Shown one piece after another: positions 13,671-20,000 of a stretch of DNA of 20,000 bases. Position numbers and translations under genes: made by a program. Under the pieces are notes generated by a model. That model searched no databases. It was not told the DNA's origin and saw only the letters and a list, made by a program, of their open reading frames with translations. Source of the DNA: Bilabrum cf. latius. Lineage: Eukaryota. The stretch covers positions 734,967-754,966 of the forward strand of contig OZ237768.1 of NCBI GenBank assembly GCA_965178125.1, read 5' to 3'. Positions within the stretch are counted from its first letter, which is position 1, and each line of letters begins with the position of its first letter.

Positions 13671-14388
13671 TTAGGGGGGTTTAGGGTTAGGGTTAGGGTT
13701 AGGGTTAGGGTTAGGGTTAGGGTTAGGGTTAGGGTTAGGGTTAGGGTTAGGGTTAGGGTTAGGGTTAGGGTTAGGGTTAGGGTTAGGGTTAGGGTTAGGG
13801 TTAGGGTTAGGGTTAGGGTTAGGGTTAGGGTTAGGGTTAGGGTTAGGGTTAGGGTTAGGGTTAGGGTTAGGGTTAGGGTTAGGGTTAGGGTTAGGGTTAG
13901 GGTTAGGGTTAGGGTTAGGGTTAGGGTTAGGGTTAGGGTTAGGGTTAGGGTTAGGGTTAGGGTTAGGGTTAGGGTTAGGGTTAGGGTTAGGGTTAGGGTT
14001 AGGGTTAGGGTTAGGGTTAGGGTTAGGGTTAGGGTTAGGGTTAGGGTTAGGGTTAGGGTTAGGGTTAGGGTTAGGGTTAGGGTTAGGGTTAGGGTTAGGG
14101 TTAGGGTTAGGGTTAGGGTTAGGGTTAGGGTTAGGGTTAGGGTTAGGGTTAGGGTTAGGGTTAGGGTTAGGGTTAGGGTTAGGGTTAGGGTTAGGGTTAG
14201 GGTTAGGGTTAGGGTTAGGGTTAGGGTTAGGGTTAGGGTTAGGGTTAGGGTTAGGGTTAGGGTTAGGGTTAGGGTTAGGGTTAGGGTTAGGGTTAGGGTT
14301 AGGGTTAGGGTTAGGGTTAGGGTTAGGGTTAGGGTTAGGGTTAGGGTTAGGGTTAGGGTTAGGGTTAGGGTTAGGGTTAGGGTTAGGG
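13671..14388 (+). repeat. Telomeric repeat tract 1: irregular TTAGGGGGGT start, then 118 x TTAGGG
   Basis: Perfect TTAGGG from 13681 to 14388 (708 bp). Confidence 0.98.
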
Positions 14389-14445
14389 TATCTAATATAA
14401 AGTCAGGGACAGGGTCGGGGAAAAAATATTTTCATCTTCAAAATA

Positions 14446-15201
14446 TGTCGAATTTTCGCGGATTGAGATCTCGGCAACTACTGGTGATATGAAGATGATT
14501 CGAACGGCAATAGGACGGCCGTAGGGCACAACATGGGGCAAAATTTTGTCAGGTTCCGTTTAAGTCGCGCGGCGCCGATATTGGGGTTTGAAGGTTTTGG
14601 TGTCGAATTTTCGCGGATTGAGATCTCGGCAACTACTGGTGATATGAAGATGATTCGAACGGCAATAGGATGGCCGTAGGGCACAACATGGGGCAAAATT
14701 TTGTCAGGTTCCGTTTAAGTCGCGCGGCGCCGATATTGGGGTCTGAAGGTTTTGGTGTCGAATTTTCGCGGATTGAGATCTCGGCAACTACTGGTGATAT
14801 GAAGATGATTCGAACGGCAATAGGATGGCCGTAGGGCACAACATGGGGCAAAAGTTTGTCAGGTTCCGTTTAAGTCGCGCGGCGCCGATATTGGGGTTTG
14901 AAGGTTTTGGTGTCGAATTTTCGCGGATTGAGATCTCGGCAACTACTGGTGATATGAAGATGATTCGAACGGCAATAGGATGGCCGTAGGGCACAACATG
15001 GGGCAAAATTTTGTCAGGTTCCGTTTAAGTCGCGCGGCGCCGATATTGGGGTTTGAAGGTTTTGGTGTCGAATTTTCGCGGATTGAGATCTCGGCAACCA
15101 CGGCAGATATGAAGATGATTTAAACTGCATGTGGACGGGGCAGGGGCATAGCATGATTTATTTGTACCTCAGGTTCCGTTCCGGTCGTGCGGCATCGATA
15201 T
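14446..15201. repeat. 155-bp tandem array: 4 near-perfect units plus 1 degenerate partial unit
   Basis: TGTCGAATTTTCGCGGATTGAGATCTCGG recurs at 14446, 14601, 14756, 14911 and 15066; the last unit diverges after about 33 nt. Confidence 0.96.
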
Positions 15202-15455
15202 CTTTAAGTGATTGGGACATATCTGTATGATATGCATTTTTAAATGTAAGTAGTAGTATGGATGTGGTGGATACAATTATGTTGTTTGATTGCGTTGATA
15301 GCAGATATTCGTTGGCCTATAGTCAAGACTAAACAGAATGCCTCTTGGCTCCTACTATTATGTCCTAACGGGTCACTGGCTGGCACTTTGGCAAGCTCCT
15401 CTCACAAGCTGGCCCAGCTGCCACTGACCTCAATTGCCATCCGATTGGCTGCTTT

Positions 15456-16043
15456 TCACTCGTCATCGGAGGAGGGTTCCGCACCGACAGCTGCCAGGAG
15501 CGCCTCCACAGCGTCCACGGCCTCCGCATTGAGATCTCCTTCAGCCGTCTTCTCGAGGGCCGTCATCAGGTCTGCGAGCGTGCCAATTCCGTGGTCCCTC
15601 TCTTCAATTGTTTCCTCCACGTCCTCGACCATATCGTCGAGAGTCCGGCTGACGCCCAGCGCGGTGTCATCGCAGGCAGCGAGGATGCGGTCCAGCAGGT
15701 CCCGCTGCTAGTCGGTGAAGCCGTTGTCCTCCACTCCACCGTCGTTCTCAGCGTCGTCTTGCTGGTTCTGGGCCTCGTTCTCTTCTTCCTCATCCAGCTC
15801 GTCCCCATCCTCCTCGTCCTGCTGCACGAGCCCTATCGGAGCCTCATCCTCGTCCTCCTCTCCGGCTGCGTCTGCGTGGTACCGACCACCGATCTCCTCT
15901 TCATCTTCCTCAGAGTCCTGTCGAGGCAGTGATGCTGCTGCTCCACTCCTTGCGCCACTTGCTCCCCGCTTCTCCTGTTCAACGGCGTGGCGAGCTCCTC
16001 CGCCATAGCCCGGTTGGAGAACGGGCGATCGCTTGGGTTGCAT
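15456..16043 (-). CDS. Element-encoded acidic protein, 195 aa from ATG 16043; the frame is open upstream to the telomere junction, so probably the 3' part of a truncated gene
   Basis: ORF 15708..16043 reads through TAG 15708-10 into QRDLLDRILAACDDTALGVSRTLDDMVEDVEETIEERDHGIGTLADLMTALEKTAEGDLNAEAVDAVEALLAAVGAEPSSDDE and stops at TGA 15456-58. Upstream of the ATG the frame reads (TAG)ARTKAAGKSKSKSKGKAKSKGARSAEP(TAG)GRHAEAAPPAK. Confidence 0.65.
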
Positions 16044-16167
16044 CTTAGCCGGAGGCGCGGCTTCAGCGTGCCTGCCCTACGGCTCTGCCGATCGGGCACC
16101 CTTGCTCTTCGCCTTGCCCTTCGACTTGCTCTTCGACTTGCCCGCGGCCTTGGTCCTGGCCTAGGGG

Positions 16168-16170
<3 letters not shown>

Positions 16171-16199
<29 letters not shown>
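16171..16199 (+). repeat. G29 homopolymer at the element/telomere junction
   Basis: CTAGGGGTTA-G29-TTAGGG read directly. Confidence 0.9.
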
Positions 16200-18103: not shown

Positions 18104-18357
18104 CTTTAAGTGATTGGGACATATCTGTATGATATGCATTTTTAAATGTAAGTAGTAGTATGGATGTGGTGGATACAATTATGTTGTTTGATTGCGTTGA
18201 TAGCAGATATTCGTTGGCCTATAGTCAAGACTAAACAGAATGCCTCTTGGCTCCTACTATTATGTCCTAACGGGTCACTGGCTGGCACTTTGGCAAGCTC
18301 CTCTCACAAGCTGGCCCAGCTGCCACTGACCTCAATTGCCATCCGATTGGCTGCTTT

Positions 18358-18945
18358 TCACTCGTCATCGGAGGAGGGTTCCGCACCGACAGCTGCCAGG
18401 AGCGCCTCCACAGCGTCCACGGCCTCCGCATTGAGATCTCCTTCAGCCGTCTTCTCGAGGGCCGTCATCAGGTCTGCGAGCGTGCCAATTCCGTGGTCCC
18501 TCTCTTCAATTGTTTCCTCCACGTCCTCGACCATATCGTCGAGAGTCCGGCTGACGCCCAGCGCGGTGTCATCGCAGGCAGCGAGGATGCGGTCCAGCAG
18601 GTCCCGCTGCTAGTCGGTGAAGCCGTTGTCCTCCACTCCACCGTCGTTCTCAGCGTCGTCTTGCTGGTTCTGGGCCTCGTTCTCTTCTTCCTCATCCAGC
18701 TCGTCCCCATCCTCCTCGTCCTGCTGCACGAGCCCTATCGGAGCCTCATCCTCGTCCTCCTCTCCGGCTGCGTCTGCGTGGTACCGACCACCGATCTCCT
18801 CTTCATCTTCCTCAGAGTCCTGTCGAGGCAGTGATGCTGCTGCTCCACTCCTTGCGCCACTTGCTCCCCGCTTCTCCTGTTCAACGGCGTGGCGAGCTCC
18901 TCCGCCATAGCCCGGTTGGAGAACGGGCGATCGCTTGGGTTGCAT
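18358..18945 (-). CDS. Element-encoded acidic protein, second copy
   Basis: Matches 15456..16043 at offset 2902; internal TAG 18610-12, TGA 18358-60. Confidence 0.65.
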
Positions 18946-19069
18946 CTTAGCCGGAGGCGCGGCTTCAGCGTGCCTGCCCTACGGCTCTGCCGATCGGGCA
19001 CCCTTGCTCTTCGCCTTGCCCTTCGACTTGCTCTTCGACTTGCCCGCGGCCTTGGTCCTGGCCTAGGGG

Positions 19070-19072
<3 letters not shown>

Positions 19073-19101
<29 letters not shown>
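19073..19101 (+). repeat. G29 homopolymer at the element/telomere junction, copy 2
   Basis: CTAGGGGTTA-G29-TTAGGG, same length as in copy 1. Confidence 0.9.
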
Positions 19102-19104
<3 letters not shown>

Positions 19105-20000
19105 GGGTTAGGGTTAGGGTTAGGGTTAGGGTTAGGGTTAGGGTTAGGGTTAGGGTTAGGGTTAGGGTTAGGGTTAGGGTTAGGGTTAGGGTTAGGGTTA
19201 GGGTTAGGGTTAGGGTTAGGGTTAGGGTTAGGGTTAGGGTTAGGGTTAGGGTTAGGGTTAGGGTTAGGGTTAGGGTTAGGGTTAGGGTTAGGGTTAGGGT
19301 TAGGGTTAGGGTTAGGGTTAGGGTTAGGGTTAGGGTTAGGGTTAGGGTTAGGGTTAGGGTTAGGGTTAGGGTTAGGGTTAGGGTTAGGGTTAGGGTTAGG
19401 GTTAGGGTTAGGGTTAGGGTTAGGGTTAGGGTTAGGGTTAGGGTTAGGGTTAGGGTTAGGGTTAGGGTTAGGGTTAGGGTTAGGGTTAGGGTTAGGGTTA
19501 GGGTTAGGGTTAGGGTTAGGGTTAGGGTTAGGGTTAGGGTTAGGGTTAGGGTTAGGGTTAGGGTTAGGGTTAGGGTTAGGGTTAGGGTTAGGGTTAGGGT
19601 TAGGGTTAGGGTTAGGGTTAGGGTTAGGGTTAGGGTTAGGGTTAGGGTTAGGGTTAGGGTTAGGGTTAGGGTTAGGGTTAGGGTTAGGGTTAGGGTTAGG
19701 GTTAGGGTTAGGGTTAGGGTTAGGGTTAGGGTTAGGGTTAGGGTTAGGGTTAGGGTTAGGGTTAGGGTTAGGGTTAGGGTTAGGGTTAGGGTTAGGGTTA
19801 GGGTTAGGGTTAGGGTTAGGGTTAGGGTTAGGGTTAGGGTTAGGGTTAGGGTTAGGGTTAGGGTTAGGGTTAGGGTTAGGGTTAGGGTTAGGGTTAGGGT
19901 TAGGGTTAGGGTTAGGGTTGGGTTAGGGTTAGGGTTAGGGTTAGGGTTAGGGTTAGGGTTAGGGTTAGGGTTAGGGTTAGGGTTAGGGTTAGGGTTAGGG
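19102..20000 (+). repeat. Telomeric repeat tract 3, running to the window end (149 x TTAGGG plus one TTGGG variant); possibly the true chromosome terminus
   Basis: TTAGGG 19102-19917, TTGGG 19918-19922, TTAGGG 19923-20000. G-rich strand runs 5'->3' toward the end, as expected for a right telomere. Confidence 0.97.

What the first reader, a model, noticed from the sequence alone, without database searches (positions are those of the whole stretch)
13671..20000. Telomere built from long TTAGGG tracts alternating with a head-to-tail 1.8-2.0 kb element
Seen: (TTAGGG)118 - element - (TTAGGG)156 - element - (TTAGGG)149+. Both copies have the same orientation, with the ORF 5' end toward the chromosome end and open right up to the telomeric junction. 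Known: this polarity, with 5' truncation capped by telomeric repeats, is that of Drosophila HeT-A/TART and endonuclease-deficient Penelope-like elements (Athena/Coprina). Tandem units within telomere repeats also describe Magnaporthe MoTeRs, yeast Y' and C. elegans TALT. Inference: an undescribed telomere-resident element, possibly contributing to end maintenance. Spacers of 0.7-0.9 kb of perfect repeat suggest each addition happened at a near full-length telomere.
Basis: partly seen in the sequence, partly recalled or inferred. Interest (0 to 1): 0.82.

Follow-up and report, generated by a model that had tools for sequence, protein, structure and literature searches.

The report
Repeat unit stacked inside a telomere
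One chromosome end of a GC-rich protist-like eukaryote carries two copies of a 1.8-2.0 kb non-coding-looking repeat unit, each sandwiched between long perfect TTAGGG tracts, and the unit most likely spreads by copying between chromosome ends rather than by its own enzyme.

Summary
TRF finds three TTAGGG tracts of 118, 157 and at least 150 units. They are separated by two head-to-tail units of 1807 and 1962 bp. The units are identical at both junctions and everywhere outside a 155-bp minisatellite.

The first tract sits directly on unique, gene-dense DNA that shares nothing with the unit.

No frame of the unit matches any protein family, and no RNA family matches. Its acidic minus-strand ORF has codon periodicity but two in-frame TAGs, and no homologue was found in about 1.8 billion representatives.

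Public runs of four coded organisms hold many sequence variants of the unit. One is a diverged relative that runs 725 nt beyond the unit's distal end. Another is cut elsewhere and continues as telomere repeats. So this is a multi-copy family, not a one-off duplication.

Best reading (0.45): a TALT/Y'-like block flanked by telomere sequence, copied onto chromosome ends by break-induced replication or unequal exchange. Its distal edge would be a healed break. A MoTeR2- or Coprina-like non-autonomous retroelement is not excluded (0.28). A mis-join of two chromosome ends by the assembler is also possible (0.12). No whole genome or raw long reads were available to decide.

The parts
13540..13556 (+). 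Short C-strand-type telomere-like stretch (CCTAACCTAACCCGAAC), inverted relative to the terminal tracts, 115 nt inside the first junction
   Evidence: Read directly; regex hit at 13540-13549. Meaning unknown.
13555..13668 (+). 37-bp C-rich repeat, 3.1 copies, the last chromosome-specific sequence before the first tract
   Evidence: TRF (96% matches); sequence.
13670..13680 (+). Irregular start of tract 1: GTTAGGGGGG then an extra T, a G-run as at the unit's distal junction
   Evidence: read directly.
13681..14389 (+). Telomere tract 1, (TTAGGG)118, perfect; now interstitial, joined directly to unique DNA
   Evidence: TRF; regex.
14390..14445 (+). Proximal head of unit 1 (ATCTAATATAAAG...). It holds three telomere-like hexamers (TCAGGG ACAGGG TCGGGG) at 14403-14420 in telomere orientation
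   Evidence: A triple of this kind appears in 46 of 2000 block shuffles of the unit, so it is a lead, not proof.
14446..15120 (+). 155-bp minisatellite, 4.4 units (fifth unit degenerate), G-skewed on the telomeric G strand
   Evidence: TRF; unit table; composition.
15121..15455 (+). AT-richer spacer that begins with a degenerate minisatellite unit; 3' flank of the minus-strand ORF
15456..16160 (-). Broken acidic ORF. It runs K-rich start (ARTKAAGKSK...), TAG at 16077-16079, Met at 16049, D/E-rich disordered part, TAG at 15708-15710, an 83-aa helical tail, then TGA at 15456-15458
   Evidence: Translation; codon periodicity; AF2 single-sequence model (residues 1-150 without secondary structure, helices at 153-206 and 212-225). 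No homologue.
16161..16199 (+). Distal junction: CTAGGGGTTA followed by G29, telomere-like and a plausible telomerase seed
   Evidence: Identical in both copies.
16200..17136 (+). Telomere tract 2, about 156 perfect TTAGGG units
   Evidence: TRF; regex.
17137..19098 (+). Unit 2: head 17137-17192, minisatellite 17193-18022 (5.4 units), spacer, broken ORF 18358-19062 (minus strand), G29 at 19073-19101
   Evidence: 100% identical to unit 1 outside the minisatellite.
19099..20000 (+). Telomere tract 3, at least 150 units, runs off the window; one TTGGG variant at 19918-19922
   Evidence: TRF.

Best explanation
**What it is.** The unit is a non-autonomous block of subtelomere-type DNA. It consists of a telomere-like head, a 155-bp minisatellite, a spacer and the 3' part of a broken gene. 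Telomere sequence in one orientation flanks it on both sides.

**Origin of the distal edge (inferred).** The distal edge at 16160-16163 arose as a break inside the ORF. Telomerase healed it from a TAGGG-like seed, stuttering first into a G-run.

**How it spreads (inferred).** Once such a block lies behind an interstitial telomere tract, any telomere 3' end can invade that tract in any register. It then copies block plus terminal tract by break-induced replication or unequal exchange.
- This would spread the block among chromosome ends and stack it in head-to-tail arrays with spacer tracts of variable length.
- At this end, a plain telomere on unique DNA received two such units, probably from two different donor copies.

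**Shown versus inferred.**
- Shown: the anatomy, the identity of the two copies, the lack of any enzyme domain, and the existence of a variant family elsewhere.
- Inferred: healing, BIR, and donor copies at other chromosome ends.
For: - **No enzyme or RNA family.** 0 of 11 frames or ORF pieces of the unit hit Pfam above threshold. The only row is Claudin_2, E 0.034 at 14.4 bits against a cut-off of 29.1, in an antisense frame. Rfam gives 0 matches at E up to 1 over 13000-16400.
- **The ORF is broken.** It has two in-frame TAGs. The one at 15708-15710 is kept in the X1 contig over it: record 5 has 3 differences, which table 3 places at 15695, 15701 and 15752. By the same count it seems kept in X5 record 12 and X6 record 21. 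The family therefore spread with the ORF already broken.
- **Whole-unit copying.** Both copies share the same distal cut, the same G29 and the same proximal junction, with 0 differences over about 1.1 kb of non-minisatellite sequence.
- **Variable spacers.** Spacer tracts differ in length at 118 versus 157 units. This is expected if telomere repeats invade in random register. That reasoning is stated for MoTeR arrays in passages of PMC7367193.
- **Two donors.** The interior minisatellite units of the two copies carry different private variants. This points to two donor copies rather than one local duplication.
- **Telomere-like flanks on both sides, same orientation.** 14403-14420 and 16161-16199.
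- **Healing signature.** The first tract also starts with an irregular GTTAGGGGGG on unique DNA, so G-runs mark new telomere starts here.
- **Foreign to the local chromosome.** The unit has no similarity to the 13.7 kb of chromosome-specific DNA; the best blastn E is 0.25.
- **A family exists elsewhere.** 61 contig pieces of X1 lie on 1147 nt, in identity classes 7/9/22/23. Pairs of variants cover the same place, for example records 3 and 4, or 6 and 7.
Against: - The orientation (ORF 5' end outward), the telomere-like distal end and the precise proximal junction are equally what a telomere-primed retroelement would leave.
- A relative about 86% identical runs 725 nt beyond the distal end, and another copy is cut at 15430 and continues as telomere repeats. 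That is the pattern of variable 5' truncation.
- How the first tract-to-block junction arose is not explained by BIR alone. The junction lies 13 nt before the telomere-like hexamers, not at them.
- No donor locus, no second chromosome end and no tract-to-head junction outside this window were seen.
- Family-wide absence of a reverse transcriptase could not be tested, because no genome is held.
Confidence: 0.45

Rival explanations
1. **Non-autonomous retroelement.** The unit would be a telomere-targeted retroelement like MoTeR2, or an internally deleted Coprina/Athena-type element.
- A minus-strand RNA pairs its 3' end with the G-strand overhang.
- A reverse transcriptase supplied in trans copies it onto the chromosome end.
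- Telomerase then extends the telomere-like 5' end, so each spacer tract is a former terminal telomere.
For: - The polarity fits: the ORF 5' end faces outward.
- The arrangement is head-to-tail with telomere tracts between copies.
- The outward end is telomere-like. MoTeRs carry TTCGGG(TTTGGG)n at the corresponding end and always point their 5' ends to the chromosome end (PMC7367193 passages).
- The size is close to MoTeR2 (1.7 kb, same passages).
- Longer relatives exist, as does a differently cut copy that continues as telomere repeats.
- Disorder plus a long helix recalls the ORF1 described for Coprina-1_Alen, with a coil domain and disordered regions (PMC13159263 passages).
- The two copies carry different minisatellite alleles.
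Against: - No reverse transcriptase, endonuclease or gag-like domain in any frame.
- No hammerhead ribozyme.
- No poly(A).
- The RNA 3' end folds no better than shuffles, z = 0.17.
- The ORF is broken by a TAG that is shared across the family.
- Both copies have the same cut and the same G29.
- Spacers of 118-157 units are far longer than the half unit to more than 20 units reported between MoTeRs.
Confidence: 0.28
2. **Assembly mis-join.** Each of two different chromosome ends really carries one tract-unit-tract. The assembler chained them through the perfect telomere repeats, so the tandem pair at this end is not real.
For: - The tracts are perfect repeats of 0.7-0.9 kb that allow overlaps in any register.
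- The two units carry different minisatellite alleles, as copies from different ends would.
- No read-level support could be examined.
Against: - Even then, the unusual junction of a long tract followed by the unit must exist at two or more loci. It is identical to the base in both copies while their minisatellites differ. The core of the finding would survive.
- Reads long enough to cross a 0.9-kb tract and a 2-kb unit would normally anchor in unique DNA and prevent such a join. This is inference; the read type is unknown.
Confidence: 0.12
3. **Rolling-circle copying.** An extrachromosomal circle made of one unit plus one tract served as template for telomere extension.
For: - Tandem units have identical junctions.
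- This mechanism is named as an alternative for identical MoTeR repeats in PMC7367193 passages.
Against: One circle would give equal tract lengths and equal minisatellites. Here the tracts are 118, 157 and at least 150 units, and the minisatellites differ in length and in variants.
Confidence: 0.05

Closest known systems
TALT1/TALT2 of Caenorhabditis elegans (templates for ALT)
   Same: - A block of ordinary genomic DNA that includes part of a gene.
- Flanked by telomere or telomere-like sequence in one orientation.
- Present at a chromosome end and arranged in tandem within telomeres.
(PMC4595603 passages; compare.)
   Different: - TALT amplification was seen in telomerase-deleted survivors.
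- Here the tracts are long and perfect, which suggests active telomerase (inference).
- No internal donor copy could be sought.
MoTeR2 of Magnaporthe oryzae
   Same: - About 1.7 kb, with no reverse transcriptase of its own.
- 5' end toward the chromosome end.
- Telomere-like sequence at that end.
- Head-to-tail arrays separated by TTAGGG tracts.
- Arrays also grow by BIR or D-loop extension.
(PMC7367193 passages.)
   Different: - MoTeR spacers are half a unit to just over 20 units; here they are 118-157.
- MoTeR2 shares both ends with an RT-encoding MoTeR1. No such partner is known here.
- Sequence relatedness was not tested.
Endonuclease-deficient Penelope-like elements (Coprina, Athena)
   Same: - At the very chromosome end, with telomeric repeats on both sides.
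- ORF1 with a coil and disordered regions.
- Coprina is reported from a diatom.
(PMC13159263 passages.)
   Different: - They are defined by a PLE reverse transcriptase, and hammerhead motifs are reported in their flanks.
- Neither is present in this unit.
Yeast Y' elements
   Same: - Subtelomeric units that can stand in tandem with short telomere tracts between them.
- Amplified by recombination.
These two points are recalled. The abstract listed (PMC11042809) says only that Y' elements back up telomere function without telomerase.
   Different: - Y' is several kb and encodes a helicase (recalled); there is no helicase here.
- Y' spacer tracts are short (recalled).
Drosophila HeT-A / TART
   Same: Head-to-tail, 5' end outward, 5' truncation. 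These features are recalled; the abstract of PMC5537684 was seen in the listing.
   Different: - They replace telomerase repeats rather than alternate with them.
- They carry poly(A) and gag (recalled). Neither is seen here.

Membership tests
TALT-type telomere-flanked recombination block | Block of non-telomeric DNA flanked by telomere or telomere-like sequence in the same orientation | tested here: met
   Tracts lie on both sides. Telomere-like hexamers at 14403-14420 and the CTAGGGGTTA plus G29 run at 16161-16199 have the same orientation.
TALT-type telomere-flanked recombination block | Tandem copies inside a telomere | tested here: met
   Two head-to-tail units lie between three tracts, subject to the assembly caveat.
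TALT-type telomere-flanked recombination block | Internal donor locus and spread to other chromosome ends | not testable with these tools
   No whole genome is held. The runs show several variants of the unit but not where they lie.
MoTeR (telomere-targeted retrotransposons of Magnaporthe) | Reverse transcriptase with REL-endonuclease in the autonomous member, and shared 5' and 3' ends with the short member | tested here: not met
   There is no RT or endonuclease in any frame of the unit. A partner element elsewhere could not be sought.
MoTeR (telomere-targeted retrotransposons of Magnaporthe) | Telomere-like variant repeats at the end that faces the chromosome terminus, with a fixed orientation | tested here: met
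   CTAGGGGTTA plus G29 lies at the outward end, and both copies have the same orientation. The motif differs from TTCGGG(TTTGGG)n.
MoTeR (telomere-targeted retrotransposons of Magnaporthe) | Sequence similarity to MoTeR1/2 | not tested
   No MoTeR sequence was available in the collections searched.
EN-deficient Penelope-like elements (Athena/Coprina) | PLE-type reverse transcriptase (DKN, RT1-7, thumb) | tested here: not met
   0 of 11 frames or ORF pieces hit any RT family.
EN-deficient Penelope-like elements (Athena/Coprina) | Hammerhead ribozyme motif in the flanking repeats | tested here: not met
   Rfam at E up to 1 over 13000-16400, both strands, gives 0 matches.
EN-deficient Penelope-like elements (Athena/Coprina) | Terminal position with telomeric repeats on both sides | tested here: met
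HeT-A/TART-type telomeric non-LTR elements | Poly(A) at the centromere-proximal junction and a gag-like ORF | tested here: not met
   The proximal junction reads GGGT then ATCTAATATAAAG, with no A-run on the element's sense strand. There is no gag family hit.
Yeast Y'-type subtelomeric element | Helicase ORF | tested here: not met
   No helicase family in any frame.

The most novel reading that the evidence does not exclude
The unit is an active, non-autonomous, telomere-primed retroelement of a little-sampled GC-rich protist lineage. It is mobilised by an unseen reverse transcriptase and works together with telomerase. Each addition lands on a full-length telomere and is itself recapped, so chromosome ends are built of alternating telomerase tracts and element copies. 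A bolder form is that the RNA starts in the distal neighbour, so that part of the telomere tract is itself copied from RNA.
Probability: 0.25. Interest if true: 0.8.

Novelty: new variant of a known kind. Interest (0 to 1): 0.55.

Why it matters
Blocks of DNA embedded in telomeres are known from few organisms: MoTeRs, Coprina/Athena, TALT and Y'. This case differs from those in three ways.
- The spacers are full-length and perfect, at 0.7-0.9 kb.
- The unit has no recognisable enzyme.
- The host's flanking gene finds only distant named relatives. The best named matches of its GPN-loop GTPase are oomycete and other stramenopile proteins at 35-51% identity.

If the arrangement is real at many ends, two consequences follow.
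- Long interstitial telomere tracts, which are fragile in Magnaporthe from three repeats upward (PMC7367193 passages), would be tolerated here.
- It would offer a natural system in which to ask whether recombination or retrotransposition backs up telomerase.

If it is a mis-join, it is a useful warning for telomere-to-telomere assemblies.

Tried and rejected
- **Whole genome and earlier notes.** No whole genome is held.
- **DNA searches.**
  - blastn 'distant' of the unit against plasmids: no match.
  - Metagenome contigs with the ORF protein: 596 pattern matches, 0 confirmed.
  - Exact 24-mer of the unit head in metagenome contigs and viral contigs: 0 each.
- **Protein searches with the ORF read through with X at the two TAGs.**
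  - 0 hits among proteins of near length and of shorter length.
  - 0 of about 1.84 billion representatives.
  - 0 PDB chains at E up to 1.
  - Atlas best score 0.80, which is chance level.
- **Structure.** The AF2 single-sequence model has mean pLDDT 62.8, with disorder and one long helix. It was not sent to a fold search, because a lone helix gives meaningless matches.
- **Other sequence features.**
  - The RNA fold of the putative 3' end has z = 0.17.
  - There are no canonical G-quadruplex motifs inside the unit on either strand.
- **Sequencing runs.**
  - No RNA holder is listed, so nothing can be said on expression.
  - X6 and X7 gave no cover over 15050-15400. A part without cover is no evidence.
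  - Depths are not copy numbers and were not used as such.
  - Loose ends left of 15322, 15335 and 15362 at first looked like different flanks. By eye they are diverged versions of the same spacer, so I dropped the idea of a composite unit.
  - Contigs of X1, X6 and X7 that end at 16160 may reflect the G-run breaking k-mer contigs. The tool also masks 16160-16196, so this does not show a shared junction.
- **Organism.** One search gave only distant named relatives. The atlas was uninformative. Passages of a thraustochytrid preprint and of a pelagophyte genome paper describe no comparable unit. I make no claim about the source.
- **Codon positions.** Codon-position bias among the 20 listed variant sites in the ORF was 5 third, 8 first and 7 second positions. 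This is uninformative, because 105 further sites were not shown.

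
Full report
**1. Observation**

Tandem Repeats Finder reports three TTAGGG arrays.

| Tract | Coordinates | Units | Matches |
|---|---|---|---|
| 1 | 13681-14389 | 118.2 | 100% |
| 2 | 16197-17136 | 156.7 | 100% |
| 3 | 19099-20000 | 150.5 | 99% |

- Tract 3 runs off the window. 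It holds a single TTGGG variant at 19918-19922.
- Two units lie between the tracts, at 14390-16196 (1807 bp) and 17137-19098 (1962 bp).
- A pairwise alignment shows the units are identical at both junctions and everywhere except inside a 155-bp minisatellite.
- The TTAGGG strand runs 5' to 3' toward the right, so the right side of the window points to the chromosome end.

**2. Anatomy of the unit, from proximal to distal on the + strand**

- **Head, 56 nt.** It begins ATCTAATATAAAG. Thirteen nt in, it holds three telomere-like hexamers, TCAGGG ACAGGG TCGGGG, in telomere orientation. Such a triple turns up in 46 of 2000 block shuffles, so it is a lead only.
- **Minisatellite.** The period is 155 bp, with 4.4 or 5.4 units, the last one degenerate.
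- **Spacer.** It is AT-richer.
- **GC-rich segment.** Its minus strand reads as a protein-like frame.
- **Distal end.** CTAGGGGTTA is followed by a run of 29 G, then regular TTAGGG.

**3. The ORF**

- The minus-strand frame has strong codon periodicity, with GC at positions 1/2/3 of 0.80/0.40/0.67.
- It reads as follows:
  - ARTKAAGKSKSKSKGKAKSKGARSAEP;
  - a TAG at 16077-16079;
  - a Met at 16049;
  - an acidic stretch;
  - a TAG at 15708-15710;
  - an 83-residue tail ending at TGA 15456-15458.
- A further TAG is formed by the junction itself, at 16161-16163.
- A single-sequence AlphaFold model gives no secondary structure for residues 1-150, and helices at 153-206 and 212-225, with pLDDT 80-93 in blocks 16-20.

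**4. Searches for function**

- Pfam finds nothing above threshold in 11 of 11 frames or ORF pieces of the unit. The only row is a sub-threshold antisense Claudin_2 hit at E 0.034.
- Rfam at E up to 1 finds nothing on either strand of 13000-16400. That library includes the hammerhead families.
- The ORF, read through with X at the two TAGs, finds no relative in any of these:
  - the word-indexed protein collection, at near length or shorter length;
  - about 1.84 billion representatives scored one by one;
  - the sequences of solved structures;
  - the ESM atlas, where the best score is 0.80, a chance level.
- The unit therefore carries no reverse transcriptase, endonuclease, helicase or gag-like domain that these tools can see.

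**5. Surroundings**

- The 13.7 kb to the left is ordinary, intron-bearing, gene-dense DNA. It encodes:
  - a tubulin;
  - an OPT transporter;
  - a GPN-loop GTPase;
  - a PITH-domain protein;
  - an FGE-sulfatase domain protein.
- The last gene seems to end near 12860, by my reading.
- The unit shares nothing with this DNA; the best blastn E is 0.25.
- The first tract is joined to unique DNA through an irregular start, GTTAGGGGGG plus T at 13670-13680. A G-run therefore marks both kinds of tract start in this window.
- Just inside lie a 37-bp repeat in 3 copies and a short inverted telomere-like stretch.
- In effect, a plain telomere on unique DNA has had two units added beyond it.

**6. The two copies compared**

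- Outside the minisatellite there are 0 differences over about 1.1 kb, and the junctions and the G29 run are the same.
- Inside the minisatellite the first unit and the last two units agree. The interior units do not:
  - copy 1 has 142C, which copy 2 lacks;
  - copy 2 has 54G and 108G, each in two adjacent units, which copy 1 lacks.
- This is more than a one-step unit gain. It suggests that the two copies were taken from different members of a family, or that the minisatellite exchanges with other copies.
- It also means that at least two physically distinct tract-unit-tract loci exist, whatever the assembler did.

**7. The family outside the window**

- No genome is held.
- Nine public runs from four coded organisms hold 12-49% of the unit's sampled words.
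- I laid 15050-16196 on contigs of X1, X5, X6 and X7. The telomere tracts and the array were left out by choice.
- All four runs hold pieces. X1 has 61 pieces, in identity classes 7 (99%+), 9, 22 and 23 (under 90%).
- Distinct variants cover the same place within a run. In X1, records 3 and 4 have 0 and 6 differences, and records 6 and 7 have 0 and 10. In X7, records 26, 27 and 28 have 27, 10 and 4.
- Three results matter most.
  - **A longer relative.** A 961-nt contig is present in X5 and X7. It matches 15927-16159 with 28 differences and 5 gaps and goes on for 725 nt beyond the unit's distal end. Longer relatives therefore exist.
  - **A differently cut copy.** A contig in X1 and X5 matches 15185-15430 with 26 differences. 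It then continues as irregular telomere repeats, so another copy is cut at a different place and followed by telomere repeats.
  - **A shared TAG.** The contig of X1 over the internal TAG has only 3 differences, and none of them is in the TAG. The broken frame is thus a family feature.
- Not learned:
  - where these copies lie;
  - whether a tract precedes them;
  - any copy number, because contig depths are not copy numbers;
  - any expression, because no RNA holder is listed.

**8. Mechanism**

Two models fit the polarity and the telomere-like ends.

- **Recombination model.**
  - The block was once the end of a chromosome broken inside a gene and healed by telomerase from a TAGGG-like seed.
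  - After it came to lie behind an interstitial tract, any telomere end could invade that tract and copy the block plus its terminal tract.
  - This gives identical units and junctions with spacers of variable length. It needs no enzyme of the unit's own.
- **Retroelement model.**
  - A minus-strand RNA would be copied from the G-overhang by a reverse transcriptase supplied in trans.
  - Telomerase would then extend its telomere-like 5' end.
- **Weighing the two.** I put the recombination model first (0.45) for these reasons:
  - the unit has no enzyme;
  - the ORF is broken across the family;
  - both copies share the same cut and the same G29;
  - the spacers are far longer than in any described telomeric transposon array.
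- I keep the retroelement at 0.28, because longer relatives and a second cut point are what 5' truncation would give, and because no genome-wide search for a partner was possible.
- As MoTeR arrays show, the two are not exclusive. They insert by transposition and also grow by BIR and D-loop extension (PMC7367193 passages).
- A mis-join of two ends gets 0.12, and a rolling circle gets 0.05.

**9. Comparison with known systems**

- **TALT1/2 of C. elegans.** These are blocks of genomic DNA, including part of a gene, flanked by telomere-like sequence in one orientation, kept at a chromosome end and arranged in tandem in telomeres (PMC4595603 passages). This is the closest match in structure.
- **MoTeR2.** It matches in size, polarity, telomere-like outward end and head-to-tail arrays. 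Its spacers are half a unit to just over 20 units, and it has an RT-encoding partner.
- **Coprina and Athena.** They sit at the very end with telomere repeats on both sides and have a coil-plus-disorder ORF1. They are defined by a PLE reverse transcriptase (PMC13159263 passages), which this unit lacks.
- **Y' and HeT-A/TART.** The comparisons rest on recalled features plus abstracts seen in the listings.
- **Novelty in print.** None listed a unit of this structure, but they are keyword searches and do not show that none is in print. No supplements were read.

**10. Verdict**

- The feature is real in the sequence, and the unit belongs to a multi-copy family that is associated with telomere repeats.
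- It is best filed as a new variant of the known kind 'non-telomeric blocks embedded in telomeres'.
- It stands out for its full-length perfect spacer tracts and its lack of any recognisable enzyme.
- What decides between the models is listed under next steps. It needs the complete assembly and its raw long reads.

Noticed in passing
window 13540-13556: A short C-strand-type telomere-like stretch (CCTAACCTAACCCGAAC) lies inverted relative to the terminal tracts, 115 nt inside the first junction. It includes a CCCGAA variant. It could be a scar of an older end rearrangement.
   Followed up: no
window 13555-13668: A 37-bp C-rich repeat in 3.1 copies forms the last chromosome-specific sequence before the telomere.
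   Followed up: no
window 13670-13680 and 16164-16199: Both kinds of tract start share GTTAGGGGGG-type G-runs, with 6 G on unique DNA and 29 G on the unit. This hints that telomerase in this organism stutters on G when it starts a new telomere.
   Followed up: partly
window 19918-19922: A single TTGGG variant unit is the only imperfection in about 2.5 kb of telomere repeats. It lies in the outermost tract.
   Followed up: no
window 1-13000: Genes run to within about 0.8 kb of the first telomere tract, with no conventional subtelomeric repeat zone at this end. The GPN-loop GTPase exon has only unnamed matches at 91% and 69% identity. Its best named matches are oomycete and other stramenopile proteins at 35-51%.
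   Followed up: partly
window 15695, 15701, 15752: At these three sites, every contig of the four runs laid that covers the site differs from the window. The window's exact variant of this stretch was therefore not seen in those runs.
   Followed up: no
window 8810-8819: A G10 run lies inside the gene-dense part. It is the only other long G-run besides the two G29 runs and a G7 at 12282.
   Followed up: no
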